Assembly: GCA_965140585.1 (NCBI GenBank)
Contig: OZ223265.1
Span: forward strand, 224,001-288,000
Length of the DNA: 64,000 nt
Direction of reading: 5' to 3'
Origin: Spirochaetia bacterium
Lineage (GTDB): Bacteria > Spirochaetota > Spirochaetia > UBA9216
Shown here: positions 33,473 through 53,356 of the stretch, in pieces
How the letters are laid out: each line of letters starts with the position of its first letter
Position numbering within the stretch: position 1 is the first letter of the stretch
The notes under the pieces: generated by a model
The model's database searches: none
Seen by the model: only the letters and a program-made list of their open reading frames with translations
Told to the model about the DNA's origin: nothing
Position numbers and translations under genes: made by a program

Positions 33473-33488
33473 TATCTTCTCCTGTTCA

Positions 33489-34277: not shown

Positions 34278-34298
34278 AATTTCTCCAAAAAAAAATCG

Positions 34299-35438: not shown

Positions 35439-35460
35439 ATATTTCCTCCAGATTCCTGTT

Positions 35461-35880
35461 TCAGGCTTTAGGCGGCATAACGGTTGCTATACCGGTAATT
35501 ACATCTTCACCGTTCTGGTTAGTAACGATAGTTTCCAGTTTTACCCGGTTTTTTTCAATATTCATTTCTTTCACGCTGACGGTAGCAGTCACAGTATCAC
35601 CGATAAAAACCGGCTTTGTAAACCGCAGTTCCTGCCCCATGTAGATAGTGCCCGGCCCTGGCAGCTTTGTGCCGAGTACATTTGAAATGAAACCGACGCT
35701 GAGCATTCCATGAGCTATACGCCTTCCGAACATACCTGCCCGTGCCTCTTCTTCGTTAATATGCGCCGGATTAAAATCACCGGTTATACCGGCATACAGA
35801 ACAACGTCAGTCTCTGTAACGGTTTTGGTAAAGGAAGCGCTGTCGCCTTCTTTCATTTCAGATATGGTAATACCCTTCAT
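35461..35880 (-). CDS. MaoC/PhaJ-type (R)-specific enoyl-CoA hydratase
   Basis: GDFNPAH, IAHG and LPGPG hotdog motifs; GGAGG SD before the ATG at 35880. Confidence 0.9.
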   Translation of the reverse strand: MKGITISEMKEGDSASFTKTVTETDVVLYAGITGDFNPAHINEEEARAGMFGRRIAHGMLSVGFISNVLGTKLPGPGTIYMGQELRFTKPVFIGDTVTATVSVKEMNIEKNRVKLETIVTNQNGEDVITGIATVMPPKA

Positions 35881-35917
35881 TTGAGCCCTCCAGATTAGTA
35901 GTGAATCATCTCTCATT

Positions 35918-35946
35918 ATTATCAAACAGGATTGCCGGCTTGTCAA
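35918..35946 (-). promoter_or_regulatory. Candidate sigma70 promoter of maoC-bcd-etfBA
   Basis: TTGACA-N17-GATAAT on the minus strand. Confidence 0.55.
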
Positions 35947-37099: not shown

Positions 37100-37744
37100 A
37101 TGTCTGTAAATAACGCTGAAATCCAGAAGATTGTGAACTCGATGGGAAGCCTTGATGAGACAGAAGTCATCAAGAGCGTAGAAGCCCTATTAAAGAAGGG
37201 TATGCCTCCGATTGAAGTCCAAAGATGTATAAACATAGGCATCGAGCTCGTAACACGTTTTTATCAGTCCGGAGAATATTATCTGGCTGATATAATTTAT
37301 GCCGGTTATATTTACCGGAAAATACTGCACATGAAAGATATGCAGAGCAAATATTGCGGGCGTGAGATAAGAGTTGCTGTTGGCTCTATCAACAATGATA
37401 TTCATAACATCGGAAAATCAATACTGATAAGTACTCTAAAATCTTACGGGTTCAAATACATAGATGCCGGCAATTCAGTAAATTCCGGGGAATCAATACA
37501 ACTGTTAAAGGAATTTAAACCGCACATCATTGCGCTGAGCTGCAATCAGATATCCACCAAAAGGGATCTTAAGAAGACTGTATCAGAATTAAAATCAACC
37601 TTCAAAAACATTACAGATTTAAAGGTTATTATTGGAGGAAACAGCCCTCTTGCTGATAACTGGCAGAATGCCGGTGCAGACAAATATATAAAAAATGAAA
37701 TTGAATTCATCGAATACTGTCTAGCACTCAGGGAGACAGTTTAA
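37100..37744 (+). CDS. Cobalamin-binding (corrinoid) protein
   Basis: Helical cap domain, DIHNIG (DxHxxG), ALS and IGG motifs. Confidence 0.88.
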   Translation: MSVNNAEIQKIVNSMGSLDETEVIKSVEALLKKGMPPIEVQRCINIGIELVTRFYQSGEYYLADIIYAGYIYRKILHMKDMQSKYCGREIRVAVGSINNDIHNIGKSILISTLKSYGFKYIDAGNSVNSGESIQLLKEFKPHIIALSCNQISTKRDLKKTVSELKSTFKNITDLKVIIGGNSPLADNWQNAGADKYIKNEIEFIEYCLALRETV

Positions 37745-40589: not shown

Positions 40590-40648
40590 TTGTTTTCTCC
40601 TAAATAGTTTTTGTAGGTAAGATTTTATCGATTCGATAGTAACATCTT

Positions 40649-40756
40649 TTTGTATATACAAATAGAGGGTTTTGGCTGTTATATGTGAATTTTATAAATT
40701 TAATTGTGAATATTATTGATATATAGAGTTATATTTGATTTTACATGTATATACAA
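40649..40756. promoter_or_regulatory. HutC/GntR-type palindromic operators TGTATATACA
   Basis: TTTGTATATACAAA at 40649-40662 and TGTATATACA at 40746-40755; a related TATATATACA lies near 37049, upstream of corrinoid-gntR. Confidence 0.65.
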
Positions 40757-40778: not shown

Positions 40779-41755
40779 TTAAACTATACTTTTATAATAG
40801 TCTTTTCCATATCTAAAAGCTTCATCGGTAATCTGTTGATTAAACAATATCGTTTCCTGTGTGTTTTTCCCCTGTACCCTGTGATTCCCAAGTATGAAAC
40901 TGCCGTACGGGGCATAGGCATCAATAGCTCTCCGCACCTCTGCCCGGCGTTCATCCTCAGCGGCATTAACCGAAGAAGCAGGGCTGTGTGTATCAAATCC
41001 TCCGATAAAACTGTATTGTTTTCCGTACTTTTTTAGCAGCGCTACAATATCATTCTAGGCTGACAGGAGCTCCATGCTATTGCCCCTTCTTCAATGAAAT
41101 CATCGATATGAATTTCAGCCTTTCCGCAGCAGTGGTTGATCGGAACAGCACCGACAGCTTTAATAGCATCATTTAGTTTTTTATGTTGAGGTTTGATAAA
41201 TTCTCTATACAGTTCCGTAGATAAAAAAGGAGCAGTTTTATATGCCACATCATCAAAAATCACAATACATTCAGGATTAGAATATTCCGAAACAATATTA
41301 ATATACCTGATTCTGTATTCAGTATGTACATCAAGCATATCATGACAGGCAGAAGGTTCATCCATGAGACTGAAAACCATATTTTCATATCCGATTAGAT
41401 CCAGAAACCTTTCAAACGTTCCGTTTCCCATGCAGTATTCCAGAACCTGCTCATCACGATTGAGATTTGCCAGTTCCTGCTGGGCTTTGGCTGCCCAATC
41501 AATACCATCAAGATCAGGAAATGTGACCTGCTTCTCCCACTTGGTAATATCTTTTAAGACATAGTCGGAATTTGGTGTAGCCCCCTCCGGAAGATGTTCC
41601 TATACAACCCCAAAGCCATCCGGACCGCCGCCTGCCGGACCCTTTTCAAACCAGTCCATAAGCCCTACATTGTATCGAACAGGAGCTGAATATACAGGAA
41701 CACTATCAGGGATTCCATGATTTAAAGCTGTTAAATAGTTTTCTTTTAATGTCAT
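40779..41755 (-). pseudogene. Uroporphyrinogen-decarboxylase-family corrinoid methyltransferase, disrupted
   Basis: Reads MTLKENYL...DGFGVV*EHLP...DITKWEKQVTFPDLD...FDD...HCCGK. In-frame TAG at 41602-41600. A 1-nt frameshift near 41055 separates the C-terminus NDIVALLKKYG...GGFD...YAPYGSF. Confidence 0.85.
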
Positions 41756-41835: not shown

Positions 41836-41871
41836 AAAAAAAAAGCGGTTCCGGAATAAACCGGAACCGCT
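41836..41871 (-). terminator. Terminator of the mbx-like operon
   Basis: A9 plus GCGGTTCCGG-AATAAA-CCGGAACCGC. Confidence 0.85.
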
Positions 41872-41919: not shown

Positions 41920-42366
41920 TTAATCAAGCTTAGCTATCATATTTGAAACTCTTTTAACATGTCCGCTTTCCTGATTGAAAAGCATGGTAAAAAGATCAAC
42001 CACATCGGCTGAAAGATTGGTCATTGTCATTACCTGCCGGTAAAAATCTCTTGTATGCTCTTCGCGTTCAAGAGCTACCCCGAGTATGCTCCGGGCATCG
42101 GCTCCGTCAGGTATAACCCGGTTCTGAATCAGCCTCTCAAGGCTTTCATGATCAAAACCAGCCGCATCGCCGTCAGGTGTTGAATCAAGGATATTTGAAA
42201 GCCTTGATTCATGCTTAACCTCTTCCGCTTCAAGCTGAAGCAGAAGTTCCTTCACCGGTTCATTAACCTCCAGTGAAGCTGCCTTTCCATAGAAAAGCAT
42301 ACTCTCATGTTCAATTTTAATTGAATATTTGAGGATATCAGAAATCTTCATATCTCCTGTACTCAT
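41920..42366 (-). CDS. Ferritin-like/rubrerythrin-family diiron protein
   Basis: Duplicated E...FY...ExxH motifs (EEVKH, QESGH); AAGGAG SD. Confidence 0.8.
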   Translation of the reverse strand: MSTGDMKISDILKYSIKIEHESMLFYGKAASLEVNEPVKELLLQLEAEEVKHESRLSNILDSTPDGDAAGFDHESLERLIQNRVIPDGADARSILGVALEREEHTRDFYRQVMTMTNLSADVVDLFTMLFNQESGHVKRVSNMIAKLD

Positions 42367-42475
42367 ACTAATTACTACTCCTTTAAACAGCCTGCCACCA
42401 GGGCAGGATTCAAGCGTGAAGTTTGACAGCAAGGCTTCTCAAACTTCAAAAAGATAAAATTCCAAGGATGTGATT

Positions 42476-44320
42476 CTATCTTTCCTTTCCCGTCAGGTAA
42501 CGATCAATACCCACCGCTGCAAGATGACCTGTAGCAATTCCCGTAATTACATCCGGACCCTTAACGATGTCTCCGCCGGAAAACAGCCAGGGTTCTTCTT
42601 TTACCTGGTAATCAGGATCTGTGACAATCTGTCTTCTTGGACTGAATTTAATATTCTCTTTCAAACCGTCCGAAATGTATTCAAGATTTGCAGCCTGACC
42701 GATTGATTCAACGATCATATCAGCCTCATAGAAGTTCTTGTCATCCATATCAAGCTTTGGATTGAACCTTCCCTCATCATCAAATATTGAAAGACATTTT
42801 GCGACTTCAAGACCCTTAACATTCTCAGAATCAGTTATTTGAATTCCTATCGGACCGTAACCGGGTGTTATAACAGCTCCCTCTTCACGTGCTTCAATAA
42901 CTTCTTCATCATCAGCGGGCATTGCATCTACGGGTTCAAGACATGTTGCAGTTACATCAACCTTTCCGTATTTCTGCTTCTGAATTCGCGCCAGTGAACG
43001 GGTAATATCCATAGCAACATTACCGCCGCCAATTACAACAATCTTTTCAGGTACATAAATTTCTTCACCGAGGGTGATCTTCCGGAGCAGGTCGATGGAC
43101 TGAAATACCTTCTTGTGATCGGAATTTTCAAGCATTGTCGACCGTCCGAGATGCAGACCGGTTCCGGCGAATACAGCATCAAAATCATTTTTCAGTTTCT
43201 CAAGTGTAATATCAGTTCCGACTCTGCAGTTTGTTTTTAGGTCAACGCCAAGGGAAAGAATATAATTTACATCCTTATCTATCTGATCATAGGGAAGCCT
43301 GTACTCGGGAATACCATAACGCATCATACCGCCGGCCTCGGGCAGAGCTTCAAATATTGTTACCTCATAACCCATTGTCGAAAGGTAGTGGGCAGCCGAT
43401 AGACCGGAAGGACCGGCGCCTATAACTGCAACCTTTTTCCCGTTTTTTATGATCTTATCGGTGCCGAGTATTTCCCTGTATTTTTCAGCAGGTACATTAT
43501 CCGCAATATATCGTTTAAGCCATCGTATTGAAATAGCATCGCCCTTGTTTCCAATTGAGCAGACTGTCTCGCATTTGTGCGTACAGATTCGTCCACAAAC
43601 CTCAGGGAGGGGGTTTGTTTCATAAAGGATGCGCAGGCCCTCCTCCAGATCATCCTCGCGAATAGCATTGATATAAGCCGGAATCCCCATATGTGCAGGA
43701 CATGTTGCAGTACAGATGCCGCATTCAACACAGCGATCGGCCTCCTTGAGAGCCTGTTCCTTGGAGTAGCCCTTCATCATTTCAATAAAGGAACTTCCCC
43801 GCTGGTCGGCGTTAAGATGATCCATCGGAACTCTTTCAGGCGGTGTAAGATCATAGTTATCGGGCTTTCTGTAGCCTTCCTCTACCCTGTCCCAGTATTT
43901 ATCTTCAGCACCCGCAACAAAGCGGTAGTCATCGGGACTGCCGAACTTATCACGGTCTATTGCCTCATCGGCATTTTCACCCTCAACCGACCACCGGAAA
44001 CGGTTTGACATCCGCAGGGAATTAGTCGTACAGATGTCTACACACAAAGCGCACCAGCAGCATCGGCCGTAGTCAATTCTGGGTCGAAGCCCGCTGTCAC
44101 CAGGTTTGGCTTCTATTCCCTCAACCGGGACCAGATCTATTGCGGCATTCTGGCAGATTTCTTCACAGGTGCCGCAGCCGATGCATTTATCTATATCATT
44201 TATATGAAACCCGCGGTACCTTTCAGATCCTTCATTGGAATGGGGATCCTTCATGGTGACCGGTTCCTTGACAATATTCTTCCACACCGTAAACGGGTAT
44301 AGTACGTCTTTCCAACTCAT
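42476..44320 (-). CDS. NuoI/MbxN-like ferredoxin fused to a GltD/SudA-like NAD(P)H flavoprotein
   Basis: RYRGFH, CIGCGTCEEIC, CCWCALCVDIC; then RCVEC...CPAH, CGRIC...CE, GAGPSG, GIPEYRL, GGGNVA and GGD. Confidence 0.9.
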   Translation of the reverse strand: MSWKDVLYPFTVWKNIVKEPVTMKDPHSNEGSERYRGFHINDIDKCIGCGTCEEICQNAAIDLVPVEGIEAKPGDSGLRPRIDYGRCCWCALCVDICTTNSLRMSNRFRWSVEGENADEAIDRDKFGSPDDYRFVAGAEDKYWDRVEEGYRKPDNYDLTPPERVPMDHLNADQRGSSFIEMMKGYSKEQALKEADRCVECGICTATCPAHMGIPAYINAIREDDLEEGLRILYETNPLPEVCGRICTHKCETVCSIGNKGDAISIRWLKRYIADNVPAEKYREILGTDKIIKNGKKVAVIGAGPSGLSAAHYLSTMGYEVTIFEALPEAGGMMRYGIPEYRLPYDQIDKDVNYILSLGVDLKTNCRVGTDITLEKLKNDFDAVFAGTGLHLGRSTMLENSDHKKVFQSIDLLRKITLGEEIYVPEKIVVIGGGNVAMDITRSLARIQKQKYGKVDVTATCLEPVDAMPADDEEVIEAREEGAVITPGYGPIGIQITDSENVKGLEVAKCLSIFDDEGRFNPKLDMDDKNFYEADMIVESIGQAANLEYISDGLKENIKFSPRRQIVTDPDYQVKEEPWLFSGGDIVKGPDVITGIATGHLAAVGIDRYLTGKER

Positions 44321-44323
44321 GAT

Positions 44324-45505
44324 TTACCTCTCTACCTCAGGCGGATATGTGTGCAGCGAAACCAGGGTTCCGGCAACATCGGCTAAATTGCAGTTAACAA
44401 GCATTTTCTCGGCAAGTGTAACCGCGTGGGTATAGGATGGGCCTCTTACATTTACACGTCTGGGATATCCTGAGCCGTCTGTGACAATATAGTAACCGTA
44501 TTCGCCGCGGGTACATTCCGCATTTACATAAGCTTCTCCGGCAGGAATCTTCCAGTGAAGGACACTGGGCATATCTGCCTTGAAAGTCCCTGTCTCCGGA
44601 GTTGAATCAAGGATCTGCTTTATAAGATCGATTGTCATCATGCAGTCGCGCCATCTGAGCCTGGCCCTTGCATACACATCAGAATCAGTTTCTATTACAG
44701 GTTCAAAATCAAGCTCCGGATACTTCAGGTAGGGATAGTCCTTGCGGATATCCTTCGGGATGCCGGCGCCTCTTGCGTTAGGTCCGGTTATTCCCCATTC
44801 ATCCACCCAGTCGGGATTGATATATCCAAGGCCTTTAGCCCTCTTTTTGAATACAGAGTTATTGAACACTACCCTCTCATAATCCTTCAGAAGCGGCACA
44901 ATCTCATCCAGTACTTCAAGCATTCTCTGCTTGAAGCCCTTTGTAAGGTTGTCCCGTACTCCGCCGGGGATGATGAAGATATGGTAGATTCGGCCGCCTG
45001 TGAGCTCTTCAAACATCTGAAGTACACGGTCCCTGCTGTAAAGCATCCACTGGCTGGGGATTCCCATACCGAAGGAGCCCACCTGGCCGCTTAACCACAT
45101 TAGGTAGGACTGAAGCCTTGCCATTTCAAGAATCAGGGTACGAATCCATAGAGCGTTCTCGGGTATTTCAATACCGGCAAGTTCTTCAAGGGCTGCGGCG
45201 TAGCAGTATTCGTTGAAATCAGGTTCAGGAACACAGACCCTGCATACAAGCGGAAAGTTGTTGATGAAGCGTCTGCGCTCCATCAGCTTTTCAAAGCCGC
45301 GGTGCAGGTAGCCCACATGGGTCTTGGATTCCATTACCTCATCGCCCAGAACTGTAAGCTCAAGCGACATGTTTCCCGTAATTCCGGGATGGTTAGGCCC
45401 CTGCCAGATCTTCGTATATTTTCCGCTGGAGAGATCTATGTCTACAGTTCCGTCACTGCGGGTTTCGGGAAAAAGTTCCCTGTTTTTTACACCAAAATTC
45501 AGCAT
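44324..45505 (-). CDS. NuoD/MbxL-like subunit lacking the NiFe ligand set
   Basis: GPNHP, GYLHRGFEK, CRVCVPEP and ECTRGE; C-terminus HTYPPEVER has no DPCxxC. Confidence 0.9.
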   Translation of the reverse strand: MLNFGVKNRELFPETRSDGTVDIDLSSGKYTKIWQGPNHPGITGNMSLELTVLGDEVMESKTHVGYLHRGFEKLMERRRFINNFPLVCRVCVPEPDFNEYCYAAALEELAGIEIPENALWIRTLILEMARLQSYLMWLSGQVGSFGMGIPSQWMLYSRDRVLQMFEELTGGRIYHIFIIPGGVRDNLTKGFKQRMLEVLDEIVPLLKDYERVVFNNSVFKKRAKGLGYINPDWVDEWGITGPNARGAGIPKDIRKDYPYLKYPELDFEPVIETDSDVYARARLRWRDCMMTIDLIKQILDSTPETGTFKADMPSVLHWKIPAGEAYVNAECTRGEYGYYIVTDGSGYPRRVNVRGPSYTHAVTLAEKMLVNCNLADVAGTLVSLHTYPPEVER

Positions 45506-46098
45506 TACACCCCTCCTGAAGAATTCTTTGAATTCTTCAGAGAAAAGCCGTCAGGCTTTTCTCCTTCATGAGGATACATCTTTTCTTTCATGTACCCGGC
45601 AGGATCATTTGTGCCCCGGCCTTCTCTTGGAAAGTACGTTTCCTCCGAATACCTCTTTGTGTCGAAGTCTCTACGGTACGGAGGTATATCATCCCAGTAT
45701 TCAAGAATGAGAGGCTCGTTTATTTCAGGGCTGTTCGGAAAGTCGATGCCGAACATTTCATGCAGCTCCCTCTGATAGGTTTTCGCCGCCGGCCAGAGGT
45801 GGTGGGCTGTAAACATTTCTGATTCTTCCGGCCAGACTGAGCGCTCAATAAAAGTGCGGACGCCAAGCCTTGTTTTATCAGACGGATTGTTCAGCAGATA
45901 GGTCAGCTGGAAGCGGTTATCCTCTATCCAGTCAACTGCTGTTATCAGTATCAGATGTGTAAAGCCTTCCCTTGTTTTCAGGTATTCAAGCAGACTGACT
46001 GTATCCTTCTTTTCGCATGTCAGATACCAGCCGTGTGCCGATGTTACGTCTGACAGGGGAAAATGCTTTTTAATATTATCAATTACCTTTTCCATCAT
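45505..46098 (-). CDS. NuoC/MbxK-like subunit
   Basis: TAVDW, RELHEMFGIDF and PPYRRDF motifs. Confidence 0.9.
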   Translation of the reverse strand: MMEKVIDNIKKHFPLSDVTSAHGWYLTCEKKDTVSLLEYLKTREGFTHLILITAVDWIEDNRFQLTYLLNNPSDKTRLGVRTFIERSVWPEESEMFTAHHLWPAAKTYQRELHEMFGIDFPNSPEINEPLILEYWDDIPPYRRDFDTKRYSEETYFPREGRGTNDPAGYMKEKMYPHEGEKPDGFSLKNSKNSSGGV

Positions 46099-46103
46099 TC
46101 CCC

Positions 46104-46769
46104 CTACCAGTTATAGTCAGGCATATCCCAGTCTTTGATTATCTTTTTCTGGTTTGCCTTATACCATTCAAAATTTTCAGCGTACTTGTTCGCACCCTCA
46201 CCACGGCCTTCCTTGATTCGCATCTTCAGAGATTCAAAGGCATCAAGCAAAGCTTCAGGCCTGGGCATGCATCCGGTTACATAGACATCAACCGGAATGT
46301 AATGATCGAGCCTGTTTATTGTATTGTAACTGTCCCAGTACATTCCGCCGTTTATTGTACAGCTGCATACGGCAACAACCCACTTGGGGCCCTGCATCTG
46401 CTCATAGCTGCGGACAATTCGCTTGATAGTCTTAACCGATGCGTAACCGCCAATAAGGAATACGGTTGACTGCCTGGGAGTCGGACGCCAGTGAATACCG
46501 AATCGGAAGGCGTCGTACATCGGACTCATAAGGGGACGCATTTCAATCGCGCCGCAGCCTGTTCCGAATCCGAGTATGTAGATAGACTCGGCACGGCACC
46601 AGTTTGCAAATTTTTCAAGCGGAGTAATCGGGTTGGGTTTGTGGACCTTCGGTTTTGCATCCGCAAAATAATCTTTATATGGATCAACCTCAAACTGCTC
46701 GCCGTCAGGAGAGGTAACCATTCGTTTTTCAAGATCTGCCGATCTTTTTCCATAGTTCATCTTTGCCAT
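46104..46769 (-). CDS. NuoB/MbxJ-like Fe-S subunit
   Basis: GTGCGAIEM, TPRQ, CSCTINGG and PVDVYVTGCMPRPEA motifs. Confidence 0.92.
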   Translation of the reverse strand: MAKMNYGKRSADLEKRMVTSPDGEQFEVDPYKDYFADAKPKVHKPNPITPLEKFANWCRAESIYILGFGTGCGAIEMRPLMSPMYDAFRFGIHWRPTPRQSTVFLIGGYASVKTIKRIVRSYEQMQGPKWVVAVCSCTINGGMYWDSYNTINRLDHYIPVDVYVTGCMPRPEALLDAFESLKMRIKEGRGEGANKYAENFEWYKANQKKIIKDWDMPDYNW

Positions 46770-46770
46770 A

Positions 46771-47715
46771 TCAATAGTACCTTATGTATACGAGGATAAT
46801 TGAGATTAATCCGATAATCAGCGGATACTTTATAAACCACCGGATGCTCTGATCCACCCGGAATCTCGGAAATGACAGCCCGACAAAAACCGACCACATA
46901 TACAATAGAAATGTTTTAAGGAAGAACACAACAAATGTAAGAAACCAGTTATTGTAAAGGGCAACGCCGCCGAAGAAAAAGTTCACATACAGAACAGTCT
47001 TTGCAACCGGAAAAATAGTCCTGTTGGTCATCAGCATTGCAAGAAAGTGCGACTGCATTTCGGTAGGCGGTCCGATTGGTATTTCCTGCGGCGCAATTAC
47101 GATATCAAAAGGAGACCGCATCATTGATCCGAGAAACCCAAGCATTGCCGCGGCGACTGCAACGGGATTTGTGAACAGCGTCCAGTTGAGAAAGCTTCCC
47201 TGCTGTGCGGCTACTATTTCAGTGATATTAAGCGTTCCGTACTGGACCGCCATTGAGTAGACAGCCATGATAAGCGGAATCTCTGCGGCAGTAACCTGGG
47301 CAAGGCCGCGGCTTACCGCAATCATTGAATACGGGTGACCTGCTTCGGCTCCGCCAAGTGCCATTCCCAGAGTCCCCAGGAAGATAAAATAGGATATGAG
47401 AACCAGATCGCCTGAGAACGAGAATGATGAAAACAGCGGCGCACCGTAGATCAGCGGAATAAAAAGCAGTATGCCTGCTCCGCCGACGAAGCGGAATACC
47501 GGGGCGATGTAGAACATAACTCCGTGTGAAACTGATGATCGGGTAGCCCACTGTCTTATGATGTTTATAAACGGCTGGTAAATCCTGATGCCGCGGCGTT
47601 TACCAACCCTTGCATATATCTTTCCTATAATTCCCTGCAGAACAAGTCCGTAAATTATCAACAGAAAGATGGTTACAAGTGCATATAGAATTTTTATGTA
47701 TTCAAATTCACCCAT
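46771..47715 (-). CDS. NuoH/MbxM-like membrane subunit
   Basis: ARVGKRRG, QPF, PFDIVIAPQEI and FPRFRVDQ motifs. Confidence 0.9.
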   Translation of the reverse strand: MGEFEYIKILYALVTIFLLIIYGLVLQGIIGKIYARVGKRRGIRIYQPFINIIRQWATRSSVSHGVMFYIAPVFRFVGGAGILLFIPLIYGAPLFSSFSFSGDLVLISYFIFLGTLGMALGGAEAGHPYSMIAVSRGLAQVTAAEIPLIMAVYSMAVQYGTLNITEIVAAQQGSFLNWTLFTNPVAVAAAMLGFLGSMMRSPFDIVIAPQEIPIGPPTEMQSHFLAMLMTNRTIFPVAKTVLYVNFFFGGVALYNNWFLTFVVFFLKTFLLYMWSVFVGLSFPRFRVDQSIRWFIKYPLIIGLISIILVYIRYY

Positions 47716-50700
47716 CTAAAAACCTCCATTGTCAAGCAGATAGCAGATGACTACAAACAGCAGCATCTGAAGTAAATAGGTCTGCCCTTTGCCGGTGTAG
47801 ATTCTTCTGAAAAATCCGGATACCGCATGCAGCAGTTCGGAAATGGAGTTCCAGAATTTGGTAGTCAAAGGATATTCAAGAAAACCAACGGCCTTCCTGT
47901 AATGTGCAAACATATTGTATGCAAAATGTGTGGTTTCAGGACGGGCCGGACGTTCAGCAGCGTAGACGATATTAAACTGTTTAATTTGCTGATTGTGTCT
48001 GTTTGTAAGAAACAGTATCACGAAGAAAACCACAAACAGTCCTATGAATACCCACATTACCATCTGACCGTTCCAGTATCCGTAGTCTGAAATAGCAAGC
48101 GAACCGTTCCAGGTCAGAGCTCCTTCCGTATGGAAATCCATCAGGATTTCACCAATCGGTTTGAGAAATGATCCCGGGAAGAAAGACAGGTAGATAACTG
48201 CAAGAATCAGAATCAGCTGCGGAAGCACCAGAAAGAAAGGGGCTTCTTTAACTTTGCGGTGTTCATCCTTCAGCTGGCCGAGGAAAATAGTTGCAATAAG
48301 TCTGAAAAGGTAGAGGAAGGCAACCAGCCCTGCTATACCGGCAACTACACCCTGCAGCAGCCAGCCCTTCTCTATAACAGCATTGTATGTAAGCCAGCGT
48401 CCGCCGAATCCGGCAAGCGGAGGAATACCCGACAAAGCGATAATGCAGACAAGGACATTGAAGAAACTCAGGGGCATTCTTGTAATCAGTCCGCCCATCT
48501 GGTACATGTTTCTGGTTTTTACCCTGTAAACAACTCCGCCGATGGCAAGGAAGAGAACAACCTTGTAGATGAAGTGCACAAGCGAGAGTGACAGCGCACT
48601 CAGCCACCCGAGGTGGGACATCAGTGCGAGGCCGAAAAGGACATAACCCATCTGCCCTATACTCGAATAGGCCAGCATCCGCTTCGCATCCTCCTGCAGG
48701 GCAGCCATATAGTTTGCAACCAGAGCGGTTATTACACCGACCCAGCTTAATACGTATGGAATATTAACACGGCCGATTGCCTGTTCGCCGAAAGCGATGA
48801 AAGTCATAAGAAGCCCGAACACACCAGCTTTAAGCAGAATACCCGAGACCATCGGGGAAACATCTGTTTCCGCTTCGGCATGAGCTCCCGGCAGCCAGAT
48901 ATGAAGCCCCGCAGATGCCATCTTTGTCATAAATCCAACAGACAAAAGCAGCATCGTTATACCGGGTAAAGCTCCGGAGGCCGCCTTCGGAAGTATCGAC
49001 AGGGCAATCGATGAGGCCCCGGTTTGGGCGTATGAAAGCGCGAAACCGCTCATTATCAGATATGCACCGCCGAGCGAAAAGAGCATATAGCTTAAGGCAT
49101 GCGGTTTTGAATTCTTTCCTCTGAGTATGAGAAAGTATGAGCCGAGGGTCATAAGTTCCCAGAAAAAGAAGAATGAAAGCGTGTCTGCAGCTTCAATTAT
49201 TCCGACAAGACCTGCAAACATCATGCTCACAGACGGGTAAAAGCCCATACGGCGATCTTTTTTCATGAATCCCGGCAGCAGGGTTACCAGTGCTCCAATA
49301 ATGAAAATTCCTGCAAAAATCGAACGGTAGCCGCCGATTTCCATTAGCAGCGGATAGCCGTAATACGCTACCGCGGCAATGAGCAGAATGTTCTTAACAA
49401 TTGCAGGGAGAAAATCCAGCAGCATGAGAACAACTACAGCGGCAGGAAGTATCCAGTTAACTGTATTTCCGAAGGATGAATAATCAGCAGAAAAATAACC
49501 CAGAGCAAGCAGGGCTGCTGCACCTGCAAGAACAGGAACAGCTGTTCCGAACCTGAAATCAAGCTTATCATCTTCTGAATAATCATTCTTCACAGCATTG
49601 CCGAACCATCGCATCAGATAAACTGCTTCGATAAGGGCTCCGCCCAGAAGAATAAAAATCCATCCGTAATGACCTGAAGCTGCAAGCTTCATCACAAGTT
49701 CCCACTTGGCATAGAATGAGGGGAATGGAGGCAGCGCCAGAAGCGCTCCAACCGCAATCGCGAAAACAGCAATAAGAATATTGCGTTTGCGTATAATTCC
49801 CCATTCATCTGTGCCGGCTTTTCCGATTATACCCGAAAGCCAGAACAGGACAGCCTTGGCAATGGCATGAGTCACAAGAAGTGCGAGTACGATCATCATT
49901 CCGTTTTCAATATCAAAGAGATTGACCATGGCATAAACCATCACAACCATGCCTATCTGCGAAATTGATGAATAACCCAGAAGGCGTTTGGCATTTGTCT
50001 GTTTCAAAGCCAGGATGTTCATGCCTGCAAAGGTAAGAGCGCCGATGTAGAGCGACGCATTCAGAAAGGTGCCGCCGGAAAGTTGATTGATCTTGGTGTA
50101 CGCAAAGAACATCGCTGTGGCGGTTCCGCCTGCAAGCATTGCCCCGACAGGGCTTGCGGAAGCTTCATAGGCATCAAGTCCCCAGCCGTTTGCAGGAAAT
50201 GGTTTCAGTTCAATGACAATTCCAATAAAGAGCAGGAACATACCTATGTAGCAGGCTTTGACCAGCTCAAAACTGAACATTCCGCTGATTACATCGATGT
50301 TCAGCGAACCTGTACGGTAGTAAGTGAATATTATTCCAATCAGCATAAAACCGCTTGCAAGCGCACCTGCAATAACATATTTAAAGCCTGCACCCAGCTG
50401 CTTAATATCGCTGTTGAGAACAATCAGTCCCGCGGAGGCAATACTCACAATCTCAATGAAGACAAAGAGGTTGAAAAGGTCTCTTGTAAGTATTATTCCA
50501 TTCAGGCCCATTGCAAAAACAAGCAGAAGCATGAAGGTGAAAACCGATGATTTTCTATATTCACGTCCAATGTACATGGTACTCAGGAAAACAGCTGCAT
50601 TTACTATTAGCGTTAGAACCGCTTCTATTTTTCCCATATAAAGATTTATCGAAAGCGGAGGATTCATCCCGGCTGTAAAGATATTTATCTCTTCAACATT

Positions 50701-50862
50701 TCCGGCCAGGATTCCTATAGTCCACTGAGCGGAAACAGCAGTAATAGCCGCCGTTGCAATAAGAGCCAATGTCACATGAATTCCCGGTCCTGTTTTTCGG
50801 AACAATCCGATAATAAATGCGGCACCGAGGGTTATTACAATAATATAAATCGGATTTACCAT
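47716..50862 (-). CDS. Fused double antiporter-like subunit (MbxH+MbxH' / MrpD-type x2)
   Basis: Two repeats of the NuoL/M/N core (DLFNLFVFIE...KRLLGYSSISQ and FFFFWE...HIWLP...KRMLAYSSIGQ); 1048 aa. Confidence 0.88.
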   Translation of the reverse strand: MVNPIYIIVITLGAAFIIGLFRKTGPGIHVTLALIATAAITAVSAQWTIGILAGNVEEINIFTAGMNPPLSINLYMGKIEAVLTLIVNAAVFLSTMYIGREYRKSSVFTFMLLLVFAMGLNGIILTRDLFNLFVFIEIVSIASAGLIVLNSDIKQLGAGFKYVIAGALASGFMLIGIIFTYYRTGSLNIDVISGMFSFELVKACYIGMFLLFIGIVIELKPFPANGWGLDAYEASASPVGAMLAGGTATAMFFAYTKINQLSGGTFLNASLYIGALTFAGMNILALKQTNAKRLLGYSSISQIGMVVMVYAMVNLFDIENGMMIVLALLVTHAIAKAVLFWLSGIIGKAGTDEWGIIRKRNILIAVFAIAVGALLALPPFPSFYAKWELVMKLAASGHYGWIFILLGGALIEAVYLMRWFGNAVKNDYSEDDKLDFRFGTAVPVLAGAAALLALGYFSADYSSFGNTVNWILPAAVVVLMLLDFLPAIVKNILLIAAVAYYGYPLLMEIGGYRSIFAGIFIIGALVTLLPGFMKKDRRMGFYPSVSMMFAGLVGIIEAADTLSFFFFWELMTLGSYFLILRGKNSKPHALSYMLFSLGGAYLIMSGFALSYAQTGASSIALSILPKAASGALPGITMLLLSVGFMTKMASAGLHIWLPGAHAEAETDVSPMVSGILLKAGVFGLLMTFIAFGEQAIGRVNIPYVLSWVGVITALVANYMAALQEDAKRMLAYSSIGQMGYVLFGLALMSHLGWLSALSLSLVHFIYKVVLFLAIGGVVYRVKTRNMYQMGGLITRMPLSFFNVLVCIIALSGIPPLAGFGGRWLTYNAVIEKGWLLQGVVAGIAGLVAFLYLFRLIATIFLGQLKDEHRKVKEAPFFLVLPQLILILAVIYLSFFPGSFLKPIGEILMDFHTEGALTWNGSLAISDYGYWNGQMVMWVFIGLFVVFFVILFLTNRHNQQIKQFNIVYAAERPARPETTHFAYNMFAHYRKAVGFLEYPLTTKFWNSISELLHAVSGFFRRIYTGKGQTYLLQMLLFVVICYLLDNGGF

Positions 50863-51206
50863 TTGAGCTCCTCGAACCTGTCTATTTCAAGACTTCCCTT
50901 TTTGTTGTACATACTCACCGCATATGTAAGCATAAAGGCTGTGATTCCAAGACCGATAACAATTGCCGTAAGAACCAGAGCCTGCGGAACCGGGTCGACA
51001 TATTCGGTACCGATTTCCGAGAGACTCGATATAATTGGAGCAGTACCTCCGGTTACATACCCGGCACTTATCATTATCAGGTGAATTCCGACATCAAATA
51101 TTGTGAATCCTACTGTTATGCGAATAATATCCTTATTTGTAAGAACTCCCCACAATCCAATGAGAAACAGAAGAACTCCGGTCACAAGAGCTGTAGTACC
51201 TATCAT
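50856..51206 (-). CDS. MrpC/MbxG-like subunit
   Basis: VDPVPQALVLTAIVIG motif. Confidence 0.92.
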   Translation of the reverse strand: MIGTTALVTGVLLFLIGLWGVLTNKDIIRITVGFTIFDVGIHLIMISAGYVTGGTAPIISSLSEIGTEYVDPVPQALVLTAIVIGLGITAFMLTYAVSMYNKKGSLEIDRFEELKW

Positions 51207-51907
51207 TCCGCAGCCTCCTCTGTTGATTCGCCATTGAGAGTGACAACTACTGAACTCAGCTCAGAACCGACCTTAAGCCCTACAACAGAGTAGATCACAG
51301 GGATTAGACCTGCACTAAACAGGCTGCCGTAGGTTCCAAGCGGAATAAGTCTGTTGTCAAGAAAGCCGTTCACAATCAGCAGTGCGCCGGCAGCACCTAT
51401 TGCAACATAGGCAAGGCCGGAAAGCGATTCAATCACAGACATAACAGTATGTCCGGTCTTCCGGTTAGGTTCTGCAAGAACCCTGAGAACTATTGCCGAG
51501 GCAATAATTGCACCGCCCTGGAAACCTCCGCCCGGACTGAGATGACCGTTTATAAAGACATATATTCCAAACATAAGGAGAAGCGGAAAAAGGAGTCTTG
51601 AAGCGGTTTTCAGCAGTTCACTCCCCTCCCTTCTTCTGCGGTTCTCATTTTTATTCAGATGAATAAGAAGACCGACAACAGTTGAAGCGGCAAAAAGAAT
51701 GGTTACCTCGCCAAGAGTATCAAGTCCGCGGTAGGTAACAACTACGGAAGTCACAATATTTGCAGAGCCAAGTTCTTCAGGACCTTCCGTGAGATAATGA
51801 GAAGAAACCGCCGGCAGCTCGGATTTTTCCGAATACTGCAGCACAAATCCTGAGAGTATGACAGCCACAGCGACAATCAATAAAAGAATAAAACCCTTTC
51901 TAACCAT
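51203..51907 (-). CDS. MrpB-like subunit (MbxE+F fused)
   Basis: NIVTSVVVTYRGLDTLGE and GHLSPGGGFQGG motifs. Confidence 0.9.
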   Translation of the reverse strand: MVRKGFILLLIVAVAVILSGFVLQYSEKSELPAVSSHYLTEGPEELGSANIVTSVVVTYRGLDTLGEVTILFAASTVVGLLIHLNKNENRRRREGSELLKTASRLLFPLLLMFGIYVFINGHLSPGGGFQGGAIIASAIVLRVLAEPNRKTGHTVMSVIESLSGLAYVAIGAAGALLIVNGFLDNRLIPLGTYGSLFSAGLIPVIYSVVGLKVGSELSSVVVTLNGESTEEAAE

Positions 51908-52142
51908 CGTTGCGCCCCCTTATTTTTTTCAGGGCGAAAAAGAATATAAAGGTTGTAAGACCGCTTCCTATGGCGGCCTCGGTCATCGCAACATCTGGCG
52001 CTGCCATTATAATGAATAGAATTGCAGCAAACAGACCGACAGCTCCCGCAGCAAGTATTGCTACTATTCTGTCTTTAACAATAACCGCGGTGAGAGCGGT
52101 AATAATCGTCATAGCTGCAATGACGATGAAAATTATATTCAT
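51900..52142 (-). CDS. MbxD-like (DUF4040) subunit
   Basis: APDVAMTEAAIG motif. Confidence 0.9.
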   Translation of the reverse strand: MNIIFIVIAAMTIITALTAVIVKDRIVAILAAGAVGLFAAILFIIMAAPDVAMTEAAIGSGLTTFIFFFALKKIRGRNDG

Positions 52143-52480
52143 ACCTTCTCTCCTTCAGTTTCTACACTTTCCATATCCTCCATCCTGTCTTCAACTGTTA
52201 GAATTGTCATGGGCTCTTTATTAAAATGGGCAGCCCTGGCTACAACATGAGAGGAAACCGGATTGGTCAGAATGATAAAGATGATCAGCACTAAAAGCTT
52301 CGGAGTCCAACCGGGAAGGATGAGAGAAATGCCGATCATGACAAAAATGGTACCAAGTGTAGTTGCCTTCGTACCCGTCTGAATACGGTTGTAAACATCA
52401 GGCATTCGTATAATTCCGAGTGCACTCAGAAAAAATACCAGCGAACCTATAAGCACAAGAATCGATCCAGCTAATTCCAT
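52139..52480 (-). CDS. MrpG/MbxC-like subunit
   Basis: RMPDVYNR, TKATTLG and PVSSH motifs. Confidence 0.92.
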   Translation of the reverse strand: MELAGSILVLIGSLVFFLSALGIIRMPDVYNRIQTGTKATTLGTIFVMIGISLILPGWTPKLLVLIIFIILTNPVSSHVVARAAHFNKEPMTILTVEDRMEDMESVETEGEKV

Positions 52481-52740
52481 TACAGCCCCCTCTCAAAGTA
52501 TCTTGCTACTACAAGAACACCCAGGAAGCTGAGCAGACCGTAAACAAGGGCAACGTCAACATAGATAAACCTTTTGACCATCCAGGCCAGCATAACTATC
52601 ACAGATATGGCCATAATGCTTATTGCATCAAATGCTACCAGCCTGTCCAGAACTGTGGGTCCCTTGATAAACCTTATAAGCGAGATGAATACGCTTAAAA
52701 GAGTAATAAGCGCCGCTACTAAAATAATTTTGTCAGCCAA
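52480..52740 (-). CDS. MrpF/MbxB-like subunit
   Basis: GPTVLDRLVAFD motif. Confidence 0.92.
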   Translation of the reverse strand: MADKIILVAALITLLSVFISLIRFIKGPTVLDRLVAFDAISIMAISVIVMLAWMVKRFIYVDVALVYGLLSFLGVLVVARYFERGL

Positions 52741-53224
52741 AGAGCACCTCCAGATGCCGTTCGAATTTAGCTACAATCTTCTCTGTAGCACCTTCAACAT
52801 CAGTACTTGAGGCATCAATCCAGTGAATGAATAAAGTGTCTCCGACAATATCCGCGGTAAGGGTACCCGGAGTCAGAGTGATGGAATTGGCAAGCGCAAG
52901 TCTGCCAAGCGGTGATTTCAGTTTTGTTTTAACTACCACGATTGCAGGATTTATCCTGACTTTCGGAGTTACAACTCTGGACATCACGTCAATATTAGAT
53001 TTGATCAGCTCTATCAGAAAGACGACTAACCATGCAATTAGAGCGATCAGAGCCCTCGGCGTCAGCCGGACTTCTGTAAACATGCCCGAGCCGAGATAGA
53101 AAAGCGATGTTATTACTGTGATAATTATACCTGCAGTTAATACATCGGTTTTCATACTGCTGTTTATACCCAGCCAAATCAGGAAGCCGAGTACCAGCGA
53201 TACGAATGCGGCTTTTACCCTCAC
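52733..53224 (-). CDS. MrpE/MbxA-like subunit
   Basis: ANSITLTPGT and HWID motifs. Confidence 0.92.
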   Translation of the reverse strand: MRVKAAFVSLVLGFLIWLGINSSMKTDVLTAGIIITVITSLFYLGSGMFTEVRLTPRALIALIAWLVVFLIELIKSNIDVMSRVVTPKVRINPAIVVVKTKLKSPLGRLALANSITLTPGTLTADIVGDTLFIHWIDASSTDVEGATEKIVAKFERHLEVLFG

Positions 53225-53326: not shown

Positions 53327-53356
53327 ATTCTATGTACGGGTTTCTATATATGTCAA
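53327..53356 (-). promoter_or_regulatory. Candidate sigma70 promoter of the mrp-mbx operon
   Basis: TTGACA-N18-TAGAAT on the minus strand. Confidence 0.6.

What the first reader, a model, noticed from the sequence alone, without database searches (positions are those of the whole stretch)
44324..46769. Mbx/MBS-like complex with rewired catalytic-core cysteines
Seen: the NuoB-like subunit has FGTGCGAIE, which is neither CxxC nor the CC of complex I. It also carries an extra Cys in VCSC, normally GxC, so with GCMP it still offers four Cys but in a new pattern. The NuoD-like subunit has CRVCVPEP and ends HTYPPEVER with no C-terminal Cys. Known, recalled from memory and to be verified: Pyrococcus MbsJ has FCTGC, and MbsL keeps one Cys at each end; NiFe hydrogenases need two CxxC motifs. 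Inference: this is not a hydrogenase, standard complex I or canonical MBS. It may be a distinct branch with a ligand-swapped proximal [4Fe-4S] cluster and a different substrate site.
Basis: partly seen in the sequence, partly recalled or inferred. Interest (0 to 1): 0.78.

Follow-up and report, generated by a model that had tools for sequence, protein, structure and literature searches.

The report
Bacterial Mbx/MBS-type respiratory complex operon
This is a 13-gene operon for a bacterial relative of the archaeal sulfur-reducing MBS respiratory complex; most of its odd cysteine pattern is shared by a large known family and fits the solved MBS structure, and only one extra cysteine next to the catalytic iron-sulfur cluster remains unexplained.

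Summary
NuoB-like J has FGTGCGAIE, VCSC and GCMP. NuoD-like L has CRVCVPEP and ends HTYPPEVER. The closest solved structure is P. furiosus MBS, 6U8Y (J 8e-58, L 1e-96).

The "rewiring" is mostly already explained. In MBS the proximal [4Fe-4S] cluster has only three Cys ligands (C28, C93, C123). MbsJ C25 and MbsL C85/C385 are dispensable (PMC7684303). The window keeps exactly those three ligands (C72, C137, C167).

Loss of the C25 equivalent maps to the base of a 35-row bacterial clade. Most of that clade keeps Gly at position 135. The extra Cys135 arose at least three times, including in lineages that keep CTGC (2 of 39 G-type loci, 9 of 30 C-type). So the two changes do not co-vary as a ligand swap.

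Cys135 is conserved in the window's own spirochaete clade (14 of 15 rows; 7 of 7 genomes). Whether it reaches the cluster could not be tested.

The operon type is already in print: Mrp module, N subunit fused to a GltD/NfnB flavoprotein, rubrerythrin-like gene (PMC4758237). It is a new member of a known kind.

The parts
53327..53356 (-). Promoter-like site (TTGACA-18-TAGAAT, 11 of 12 matches) upstream of the first gene
   Evidence: This is a consensus match only; the total number of such sites in the region is no higher than in shuffled sequence.
52733..53224 (-). MnhE/MbsA-like subunit (163 aa)
   Evidence: Pfam MNHE, 9e-33
52480..52740 (-). MrpF/MbsB-like subunit (86 aa)
   Evidence: Pfam MrpF_PhaF, 1.2e-14
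52139..52480 (-). MnhG/MbsC-like subunit (113 aa)
   Evidence: Pfam PhaG_MnhG_YufB, 2.6e-25
51900..52142 (-). MbhD/MbsD-like subunit (80 aa)
   Evidence: Pfam MbhD, 5.2e-20
51203..51907 (-). MbhE+MnhB (MbsE-like) subunit (234 aa)
   Evidence: Pfam MnhB 5.3e-25 and MbhE 7.7e-8
50856..51206 (-). MnhC/NuoK-like (MbsG-like) subunit (116 aa)
   Evidence: Pfam Oxidored_q2, 4.4e-23
47716..50862 (-). Fused antiporter-like subunits H+H' (1048 aa)
   Evidence: The N-terminal half matches 6u8y_H (1e-41). Residues 472-1039 match 6u8y_X, MbsH' (5.7e-55). The fusion is seen in 23 loci, all with G at J69.
46771..47715 (-). Membrane anchor M (NuoH-like, 314 aa)
   Evidence: Matches 6u8y_M at 7.9e-40, against 3.5e-11 for the best complex I NuoH. 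The D196, E203 and E211 equivalents are kept; E104->F and E193->S.
46104..46769 (-). J, NuoB-like holder of the proximal [4Fe-4S] cluster (221 aa). C72, C137 and C167 correspond to MbsJ C28, C93 and C123. G69 replaces C25. Extra Cys at 135 and 58.
   Evidence: The alignment to 6u8y_J runs 161 residues (query 52-212) without a gap. The AF2 model (pLDDT 86.3) is best matched by 6u8y_J (TMt 0.87, rmsd 1.5 A).
45505..46098 (-). K, NuoC-like subunit (197 aa)
   Evidence: Pfam Complex1_30kDa, 3.1e-24
44324..45505 (-). L, NuoD-like subunit (393 aa). C91 corresponds to MbsL C85. Extra C88. Y387 replaces C385. T43 and V92 stand at the quinone-ligand positions.
   Evidence: 6u8y_L 9.6e-97; alignment to T. 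thermophilus Nqo4
42476..44320 (-). N fused to an NfnB/GltD-type flavoprotein (614 aa). It has two CxxCxxCxxxC motifs (residues 46-56 and 87-97), a Fer4_20 domain (a third such motif at 197), a GAGPSG FAD site at 301 and a GGGNVAMD NAD(P)H site at 431.
   Evidence: Residues 7-106 match 6u8y_N (4.4e-20). Residues 162-612 match NfnI large subunit, T. maritima NfnB and NfnA (1e-70 to 5.5e-77). NCBIfam PRK13984 scores 855 bits, below its cut-off of 946. Motifs.
41920..42432 (-). Ferritin-like/rubrerythrin-like protein (170 aa), last gene of the unit
   Evidence: Pfam Ferritin_2 1.6e-7 and Rubrerythrin 6.2e-7. PMC4758237 says mbx-like operons often end with rubrerythrin.
41844..41871 (-). Terminator-like hairpin (11 pairs, 8 of them G-C) followed by a T run

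Best explanation
The window encodes an ordinary member of the bacterial Mbx-like branch of the MBS family of membrane-bound, ion-translocating oxidoreductases. It appears to be one transcription unit of 13 genes, 53356 to 41844 on the minus strand. It comprises a Mrp-type antiporter module, two fused antiporter-like pumps (H-H'), the anchor M, and the peripheral arm J-K-L-N.

**Shown**
- Every core subunit is closest to its MBS counterpart in 6U8Y.
- J keeps exactly the three cysteines that hold the proximal [4Fe-4S] cluster in MBS, with the same loop length.
- L has neither a Ni-Fe site nor the quinone ligands.
- The 'missing' cysteines (MbsJ C25, MbsL C385) are ones that mutagenesis showed to be dispensable in MBS. 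Their loss is shared by a large clade.

**Inferred**
- The proximal cluster has a non-cysteinyl, catalytic iron as in MBS and reduces sulfane sulfur (polysulfide).
- Electrons come from NAD(P)H through the FAD and the two extra [4Fe-4S] clusters of the NfnB/GltD domain fused to N, and perhaps also from ferredoxin. They then pass through the two N clusters to J.
- The reaction drives H+/Na+ translocation.

**Open**
The extra Cys135 of J sits two residues before ligand C137. It is a lineage-specific, recurrent substitution whose role is unknown. It is not a replacement for the lost Cys.
For: **Operon content and order**
- A promoter-like site and a strong terminator-like hairpin bracket the unit.

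**Closest solved chains are all from 6U8Y**
- J 8e-58, L 9.6e-97, M 7.9e-40, H' 5.7e-55, H 1e-41, N 4.4e-20.
- The fold search agrees.

**MBS structure and mutants (PMC7684303, passages read)**
- The proximal cluster is held by C28, C93 and C123 only.
- C25 is too far away to be a ligand.
- C25A and C85A/C385A enzymes have wild-type activity.

**Family-wide patterns**
- In the 120 best J homologues, position 69 is G or A in 120 of 120 by alignment (117 G, 3 A). A regex read 116 of the 120.
- In the 120 best L homologues, 119 of 120 end HTYPPE[IV]ER.
- In the J+L tree of 66 rows, the C69 loss lies at the base of a 35-row clade (SH-aLRT 99).

**Quinone-ligand positions**
- V stands at the Y87 position in 63 of 64 Mbx/MBS-type L subunits.
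- The 5 complex I controls in the same alignment all have H/Y.

**N fusion and cofactor motifs**
- N is fused to the GltD/NfnB domain in 48 of 55 loci where this could be decided.
- FAD and NAD(P)H motifs are present.

**Genome context**
- The own genome has a single NuoB/NuoD homologue.
- It is a fermenter-like anaerobe, with 8 [FeFe]-hydrogenase-like hits and 2 Rnf/Nqr-D loci.

**Prior description**
The operon type (gltD flavoprotein in place of NuoI, rubrerythrin at the end, vestigial Cys in NuoD) is described in PMC4758237.
Against: - No biochemistry exists for any bacterial Mbx. In T. maritima only mbxA transcript induction by S0 or thiosulfate has been reported (PMC9431562). In Endoriftia the complex is listed as being of unknown function and direction (PMC11636981).
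- NAD(P)H to polysulfide releases little energy (about 60 mV by standard potentials, recalled). That is tight for a two-pump machine.
- Cys135 replaces a Gly that is otherwise nearly invariant, right beside a cluster ligand. It could complete four-Cys coordination, which would remove the open iron on which the MBS mechanism depends.
- Two of the five acidic residues that the MBS paper names in MbsM are not kept: E104->F and E193->S.
- MbsH K250 aligns to T249 in the H-like half.
- The window scores below NCBIfam's curated cut-off for PRK13984 (855 against 946 bits).
Confidence: 0.6

Rival explanations
1. One reading: the proximal cluster is ligand-swapped. Cys135 takes the place of the lost first Cys of CxxC and gives a four-Cys cluster with new geometry. 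Catalysis would then move to a different substrate site, for example around L C88/C91.
For: - J still offers four Cys around the cluster region: C72, C135, C137 and C167.
- Cys135 replaces a Gly that is conserved in nearly all NuoB and hydrogenase small-subunit relatives sampled.
- It is kept in 14 of 15 rows of the window's clade and in 7 of 7 related genomes.
- In the AF2 model it sits at the end of strand 130-134, just before the short helix that carries ligand C137.
- The neighbouring residue 134 is V or I in all 12 Cys135 rows, against L/F/H in the 58 others. That suggests local repacking.
Against: - C25 is not a ligand in MBS, so there was no ligand to swap.
- 37 of 39 G69 loci keep Gly135 and so have only three Cys.
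- Cys135 also arose in a clade that keeps CTGC (9 of 30 loci).
- C88 and C91 of L vary freely: 7 and 5 changes on the tree, and some members have neither.
- C85A/C385A MBS is fully active.
Confidence: 0.17
2. The complex is an ion-translocating ferredoxin:NAD(P)+ oxidoreductase with an Rnf-like role and no sulfur substrate. This was assumed for mbx-like operons before MBS was characterised.
For: - PMC4758237 assigns this function to mbx-like operons and names the gltD-type subunit as the NAD(P)+ site.
- The Mesotoga preprint 10.1101/322537 treats Mbx as an NADP:ferredoxin oxidoreductase.
- The N::NfnB fusion provides a NAD(P)(H) site.
- Ferredoxin-producing systems are present. A Bcd/EtfAB set with a ferredoxin-domain EtfA lies at 32285-35438.
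Against: - Both ferredoxin and NAD(P)H would act at the distal end of the N cluster chain. The conserved J/L/M chamber, which is the coupling site in MBS, MBH and complex I, would then lie outside the electron path (inference).
- The assignment predates the finding that P. furiosus Mbx is a sulfane-sulfur reductase (PMC7684303).
- The genome already has two Rnf/Nqr-type loci.
Confidence: 0.2
3. The complex runs in reverse. The ion gradient drives electrons from sulfide or polysulfide up to NAD(P)+. This is plausible in the sulfur-oxidising gammaproteobacteria that carry relatives.
For: - Many relatives come from sulfur-oxidiser lineages: Chromatiaceae, Thiodiazotropha, Sedimenticola, Ectothiorhodospiraceae and Thiobacillaceae.
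- In Endoriftia the direction is stated to be unknown.
Against: The window's genome looks like a fermentative spirochaete with many [FeFe]-hydrogenase-like genes. No sulfide-oxidation genes were searched for.
Confidence: 0.05

Closest known systems
Pyrococcus furiosus MBS (formerly Mbx), membrane-bound sulfane-sulfur reductase, PDB 6U8Y
   Same: - Same subunit set and gene order (A-B-C-D-E-G-H-H'-M-J-K-L-N).
- It is the best PDB match for J, L, M, H, H' and the N-terminal part of N.
- The same three proximal-cluster Cys, with identical loop length.
- No Ni-Fe site and no quinone ligands.
   Different: - MbsJ C25 is Gly here and MbsL C385 is Tyr.
- Extra Cys at J135, J58 and L88.
- H and H' are fused into one 1048-aa protein.
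- N carries a C-terminal NfnB/GltD flavoprotein domain of about 450 aa.
- A ferritin-like gene ends the operon.
- Identity is moderate: 52% for J in the Foldseek alignment of the AF2 model to 6u8y_J. No identity figure was obtained for L against MbsL; Thermococcales L relatives (loci L055, L057) are 39-40% identical.
'mbx-like' operons of Thermotoga and proteobacteria (Degli Esposti 2015, PMC4758237); T. maritima Mbx (PMC9431562)
   Same: - A gltD-type flavoprotein at the NuoI position.
- A rubrerythrin-like gene at the end.
- Vestigial Cys in the NuoD homologue.
   Different: - The Thermotogae MAG loci sampled here keep CTGC and GSC in J. Their L patterns are also different: PRIC...ICPPDFDR in L039, and VCRVN...TAPEIDR in L061.
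- T. maritima's own sequences could not be fetched.
- The window belongs to a crown clade with G69 and fused H-H'.
NfnB / NfnI large subunit (SudA) / GltD family of NAD(P)H-binding iron-sulfur flavoproteins
   Same: Residues 162-612 of the N fusion align end to end with PDB 5JCA_L, 5VJ7_A, 4YLF_B and 9N5U_A (1e-70 to 5.5e-77). The Fer4_20 domain and the FAD and NAD(P)H motifs are present.
   Different: - It is covalently joined to a NuoI/MbsN two-cluster domain.
- No NfnA-like partner is encoded in the operon, so a bifurcating role is not indicated.
Supernumerary cysteines at the proximal cluster of O2-tolerant [NiFe]-hydrogenases, and the tandem Cys of complex I cluster N2
   Same: Both are precedents in which Gly-to-Cys or adjacent-Cys changes next to proximal-cluster ligands alter cluster chemistry. 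The hydrogenase case is recalled from memory. The complex I tandem Cys is described in PMC7684303.
   Different: - The positions differ. The hydrogenase extras are recalled as lying beside the first ligand pair and five residues after the third ligand. Here the extra Cys is two residues before the third ligand.
- No spectroscopic data exist for this variant.

Membership tests
Mbx/MBS-type membrane-bound oxidoreductases (broad family, archaeal and bacterial) | A Mrp-type antiporter module, two antiporter-like subunits, a NuoH-like anchor and the J-K-L-N peripheral arm, all in one operon | tested here: met
   H and H' are fused.
Mbx/MBS-type membrane-bound oxidoreductases (broad family, archaeal and bacterial) | J carries the three proximal-cluster ligands (MbsJ C28, C93, C123) on the shortened MBS-length loop | tested here: met
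   C72, C137 and C167. The alignment to 6u8y_J has no gap over 161 residues.
Mbx/MBS-type membrane-bound oxidoreductases (broad family, archaeal and bacterial) | L lacks a complete four-Cys Ni-Fe site and lacks the quinone ligands (Nqo4 H38, Y87) | tested here: met
   Only C91 sits at a ligand position. T43 and V92 occupy the quinone-ligand positions.
Mbx/MBS-type membrane-bound oxidoreductases (broad family, archaeal and bacterial) | Polysulfide (sulfane sulfur) reduction at a non-cysteinyl iron of the proximal cluster, coupled to ion translocation | not testable with these tools
   This needs enzyme assays, EPR or a structure.
Archaeal MBS in the strict sense (Thermococcales) | A stand-alone MbsN that accepts ferredoxin; CTGC in J; one Cys at each end of L (C85, C385) | tested here: not met
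   N is fused to an NfnB/GltD domain. J has G69. L has Y387. The Cys residues concerned are non-essential in MBS.
Bacterial 'mbx-like' operons (PMC4758237) | A gltD-type flavoprotein at the NuoI position; the operon often ends with rubrerythrin; vestigial Cys in the NuoD homologue | tested here: met
   The fusion is present in 48 of 55 related loci where it could be decided.
[quoted passage not shown] | Four Cys ligands in the large subunit (two CxxC motifs) and CxxC in the small subunit | tested here: not met
   The C-terminal motif has no Cys. The second N-terminal ligand position is E94. J has GxxC. The register was inferred through Thermus numbering and not from an alignment to a hydrogenase.
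Respiratory complex I / NDH-1 | Tandem CC ligands of cluster N2 in NuoB; H38 and Y87 in NuoD | tested here: not met
   J has GCG where the complex I loci L072-L082 have CC. L has T43/V92, against H/Y in 5 of 5 complex I controls.

The most novel reading that the evidence does not exclude
Cys135 of J is a gated or hemilabile fourth ligand, or a persulfide-carrying thiol, at the otherwise open iron of the MBS-type proximal cluster. It may work together with Cys58.
- It evolved independently at least three times, always with a beta-branched residue at position 134 in the locus sample.
- In those lineages it would change the redox chemistry or substrate handling of the catalytic cluster.
- That would be a natural analogue of the tandem-Cys switch of complex I cluster N2, or of the supernumerary Cys of O2-tolerant hydrogenases.
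Probability: 0.2. Interest if true: 0.6.

Novelty: new member of a known kind. Interest (0 to 1): 0.3.

Why it matters
Bacterial Mbx-like complexes are very widespread. The J search found 2448 proteins at E<=1e-10. Named sources include Spirochaetales, Bacteroidales, Marinimicrobia, and Alpha-, Gamma- and Deltaproteobacteria. None has been studied biochemically.

The natural variation seen here is an independent, comparative check on the MBS model. A whole clade has dropped the Cys residues that mutagenesis showed to be dispensable. Every one of the 69 MBS-type loci that can be read keeps the three true ligands.

The recurrent Gly-to-Cys change beside ligand C137 picks out a single residue to test. 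The obvious experiments are G91C in P. furiosus MbsJ, or C135G in a spirochaete enzyme. These would probe whether the open iron is needed for sulfane-sulfur reduction.

For genome annotation, these genes should not be called NADH-quinone oxidoreductase subunits, as the public names seen do.

Tried and rejected
**Distance from Cys135 to the cluster**
- Structure prediction returns no coordinates and no cluster.
- Only the secondary-structure context could be read: strand 130-134, Cys135 in coil, helix 136-140.
- Complex prediction was not run. Binding of J to L is textbook, and the tool scores binding, not ligand geometry.

**Co-variation of C->G with G->C**
- Rejected by the counts and the tree.
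- A formal paired test is impossible, because the C->G change maps to essentially one branch.

**Co-variation of Cys58 with Cys135**
- The raw counts are striking: both 22, Cys58 only 7, Cys135 only 9, neither 163, out of 201 rows.
- Only 4 independent pairs lie on supported branches. Cys58 goes the same way in 1.6 on average and the other way in 0.2, which is not significant.
- V/I134 goes the same way in 3.0 of 4 pairs and never the other way, median p 0.25.
- In that larger sample some Cys135 rows have Leu134, so the association with residue 134 is not absolute.
- Both associations are therefore reported as suggestive only.

**'CRVC' as a retained hydrogenase CxxC**
- Rejected on register.

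**Literature searches**
- The search for MbxN/MbxL/MbxJ returned almost only unrelated papers.
- The searches found no biochemical study of a bacterial Mbx and no mention of the CxC variant.
- No search was made for the motif itself.
- Supplements of PMC7684303 and PMC4758237 were not opened. Their alignments may show bacterial J sequences.

**Other limits**
- The trait column 135 was not dropped from the 125-row J tree. It was dropped.
- Rows dropped from the J+L tree: L007, L038, L050 and L056, because they were gappy or masked.
Full report
**What is there**

On the minus strand, thirteen genes run from 53224 to 41920:
- MnhE-, MrpF-, MnhG-, MbhD-, MnhB- and MnhC-like small membrane subunits.
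- One 1048-aa protein made of two antiporter-like modules.
- A NuoH-like anchor (M).
- NuoB-like J, NuoC-like K and NuoD-like L.
- A 614-aa protein whose first ~110 residues are NuoI/MbsN-like and whose remainder is an NfnB/GltD-type flavoprotein.
- A ferritin/rubrerythrin-like protein.

A TTGACA-18-TAGAAT site at 53356-53327 and a strong hairpin with a T run at 41871-41844 bracket the set. These are consensus matches only. The finding's coordinates cover L, K and J.

**Checking the observation**

- J has G69 and C72 (FGTGCGAIE), C135 and C137 (VCSC) and C167 (GCMP). It also has C58.
- L has C88 and C91 (CRVCVPEP) and ends HTYPPEVER, with Y387.

The recalled comparison with P. furiosus is also right. 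In the phmmer alignments to PDB 6U8Y, MbsJ reads FCTGCGGIE, HGSCPINGG and GCMP. MbsL reads LRICVPEPD and ends DNCPPDIDR.

**What family it is**

For every core subunit the best solved chain is from MBS (6U8Y):

| Subunit | E-value |
|---|---|
| J | 8e-58 |
| L | 9.6e-97 |
| M | 7.9e-40 (best complex I NuoH: 3.5e-11) |
| C-terminal half of the fused protein vs MbsH' | 5.7e-55 |
| N-terminal half of the fused protein vs MbsH | 1e-41 |
| Start of the N fusion vs MbsN | 4.4e-20 |

Further points:
- An AF2 model of J (pLDDT 86.3) is best matched by 6u8y_J (TMt 0.87, rmsd 1.5 A over 163 columns).
- J aligns to MbsJ over 161 residues without a gap. It therefore has the shortened MBS loop and not the longer MBH one.
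- L has T43 and V92 where T. thermophilus Nqo4 has the quinone ligands H38 and Y87.
- In one alignment, 63 of 64 Mbx/MBS-type L subunits have V at the Y87 position, while 5 of 5 complex I controls have H and Y.
- The own genome has only this one NuoB/NuoD pair.

So it is not a hydrogenase and not complex I. It belongs with MBS.

**Why most of the 'rewiring' is already explained**

The cryo-EM paper on MBS (PMC7684303; passages read) reports three things:
- The proximal [4Fe-4S] cluster is held by only three cysteines of MbsJ: C28, C93 and C123.
- C25, the first Cys of FCTGC, is too far away to bind.
- MbsJ C25A and MbsL C85A/C385A enzymes have wild-type activity. The open iron is proposed as the catalytic site for polysulfide.

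The window keeps exactly the three ligands (C72, C137, C167). It has lost C25 (G69) and C385 (Y387), two of the three Cys shown to be dispensable. The loss of C25 therefore creates no vacancy for a 'swap' to fill.

C88 and C91 of L have CxxC spacing, but they are not the hydrogenase CxxC in register. C91 is Thermus position 86, the 'first' Ni-Fe ligand position of PMC4758237. C88 is position 83. The second ligand position is E94. This register was inferred from those alignments; no hydrogenase large subunit was aligned here.

**Comparative test of the swap idea**

*Close homologues.* Of the 120 best J homologues, position 69 is G or A in all 120 by alignment (117 G, 3 A). A regex read 116 of them. 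Only 17 have Cys at position 135; with the window that makes 18 of 121. Of the 120 best L homologues:
- 119 end HTYPPE[IV]ER.
- All 120 have the first Cys (C88).
- 21 have Ala or Thr at the C91 position.

*Genome loci.* A scan of 185,579 species genomes gave at least 599 loci, and the best 80 were kept. Of these, 69 are Mbx/MBS-type and 11 are complex I or NDH-type. Among the 69, the J69/J135 states are:

| J69 / J135 | Loci |
|---|---|
| G / G | 37 |
| C / G | 21 |
| C / C | 9 |
| G / C | 2 |

Cys135 is thus found in 2 of 39 G69 loci (Marispirochaeta, Cloacimonadaceae) and in 9 of 30 loci that keep CTGC. The latter are gammaproteobacterial sulfur-oxidiser MAGs plus one contig labelled Bathyarchaeota.

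*Tree.* I built a J+L tree of 66 rows with IQ-TREE (quick search, LG+G4). The trait columns were removed, and four gappy rows were dropped.
- Loss of C69 maps to the base of one 35-row clade (SH-aLRT 99).
- Cys135 needs at least 3 gains.
- The vestigial Cys of L change often: L88 7 times, L91 5 times, L387 8 times.
- On a larger, less well supported J tree (201 rows), Cys135 needs 7 changes.

The two substitutions therefore do not co-vary. The typical clade member has just three Cys, as in MBS.

**What remains unexplained**

Cys135 replaces a Gly that is conserved in almost all NuoB and hydrogenase small-subunit relatives sampled.
- It is well kept in the window's own lineage: 14 of 15 rows of its clade (SH-aLRT 97).
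- It is present in 7 of 7 genomes of its order that carry the gene, out of 11 genomes searched.
- In all 12 Cys135 rows of the locus set, residue 134 is Val or Ile. The 58 others have Leu, Phe or His. In the larger sample some Cys135 proteins have Leu134.
- Cys58 tends to accompany it: both 22, Cys58 only 7, Cys135 only 9, neither 163, out of 201 rows.
- After allowing for relatedness, only 4 independent contrasts remain and nothing is significant.
- In the AF2 model, Cys135 lies at the tip of strand 130-134, just before the short helix carrying ligand C137.

I could not obtain coordinates or place the cluster. Whether Cys135 reaches the open iron is therefore untested. Other lineages also have a CxC at this spot together with CxxC: representatives P0276 and P0299 read CNC.

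**How it most likely works**

*Shown:* the parts list and the cofactor motifs.
- Two CxxCxxCxxxC motifs in the NuoI-like part of the N fusion.
- A Fer4_20 domain with a third such motif.
- GAGPSG (FAD) and GGGNVAMD (NAD(P)H) sites.
- End-to-end similarity of residues 162-612 to NfnI-L, NfnB and NfnA.

*Inferred:* the electron path and coupling.
- NAD(P)H feeds FAD, then the two clusters of the NfnB-like domain, the two N clusters and the proximal cluster of J.
- At the proximal cluster, sulfane sulfur is reduced at the open iron, as in MBS.
- The J/L/M chamber couples this to the fused H-H' pumps and the Mrp module.

Coupling residues are partly kept:
- MbsM D196, E203 and E211 equivalents are present; E104 and E193 are not.
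- MbsH' E128 and K248, and MbsH E138, are kept.
- MbsH K250 aligns to T249.

The fusion of N to the flavoprotein is the rule in bacteria: 48 of 55 loci where it could be decided. The 7 unfused loci are from Thermococci, Clostridia, Synergistota and one Spirochaetales MAG.

The main rival is the older reading of these operons as ferredoxin:NAD(P)+ oxidoreductases (PMC4758237; preprint 10.1101/322537). I rate it lower because it leaves the conserved catalytic chamber outside the electron path. That is an inference, not a test.

No bacterial Mbx has been assayed in the papers I found. For T. maritima there is only transcript induction by S0 or thiosulfate (PMC9431562). For Endoriftia there is only co-expression, with the direction stated as unknown (PMC11636981).

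**Novelty and verdict**

The operon type was described in 2015: an mbx-like operon with a gltD flavoprotein at the NuoI position, rubrerythrin at the end, and vestigial Cys in NuoD (PMC4758237). The window is a member of a crown clade within it, marked by G69 and fused H-H' (23 loci, all G69).

It is a new member of a known kind. The one feature not found in the papers I read is the recurrent Cys two residues before the third cluster ligand. Passages were read. No supplements were opened.

The finding is worth less than its first score. It does leave one sharp, testable residue-level question.

Noticed in passing
window 53444-56289: Directly upstream of the operon's promoter-like site lie a short (208 aa) ABC-permease ORF and IS3-type transposase pieces: HTH_Tnp_1 at 54927-55262, an HTH domain at 55291-55596 and an rve integrase core at 55705-56289. 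The complex's phylogeny cuts across phyla, so the operon may have arrived by transfer.
   Followed up: no
window 47716-50862 (H-like half, residue T249): In the phmmer alignment to 6u8y_H, the pump lysine MbsH K250 aligns to Thr249, and Lys220 stands where MbsH has Glu221. The alignment to MbsH also stops at residue 258. The first antiporter-like module may be altered.
   Followed up: partly
window 41920-42432: The ferritin-like last gene also hits the C-terminal ferritin part of NCBIfam PRK12775 (E 3e-4). That model describes a fusion of a GltD-like subunit with a ferritin domain. This hints at a functional link between the two domain types.
   Followed up: no
proteins P0276, P0299: Other NuoB-like representatives read YCSACGAIE ... 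GCNC ... GCMP. They have both a CxxC and a CxC at the same spot as the window's CSC, and appear to be a further lineage. Their complexes were not identified.
   Followed up: no
loci L004, L070: L subunits reading PLCVRIAVPEPD have no Cys at either the 88 or the 91 position, but have one shifted by a residue. Together with HTYPP this leaves no vestigial Ni-Fe Cys in register.
   Followed up: no
locus L042: A contig labelled Candidatus Bathyarchaeota nests inside a clade of gammaproteobacterial sulfur-oxidiser MAGs. This is either a binning error or a recent transfer.
   Followed up: no
window 32285-35946: A Bcd/EtfAB-type set: an acyl-CoA dehydrogenase, EtfB, an EtfA with an N-terminal two-[4Fe-4S] ferredoxin domain, and a MaoC dehydratase.
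   Followed up: no
window 35995-36936 and 38511-40661: A 313-aa protein with a hydrophobic N-terminus hits Pfam Ntox23 (4.7e-12). A 716-aa protein has two FMN_bind domains plus a fumarate-reductase-type FAD domain, probably an extracytoplasmic flavin reductase.
   Followed up: no
window 41042-41431 and 37100-37744: A 129-aa ORF matches only positions 153-261 of the 346-position URO-D/MtaA-type profile, so it looks like a gene remnant. A B12-binding-domain protein lies nearby.
   Followed up: no
(public names): Sources name these J and L proteins 'NADH-quinone oxidoreductase subunit B/D' or 'hypothetical'. Given the missing tandem Cys and quinone ligands, those names are misleading.
   Followed up: partly
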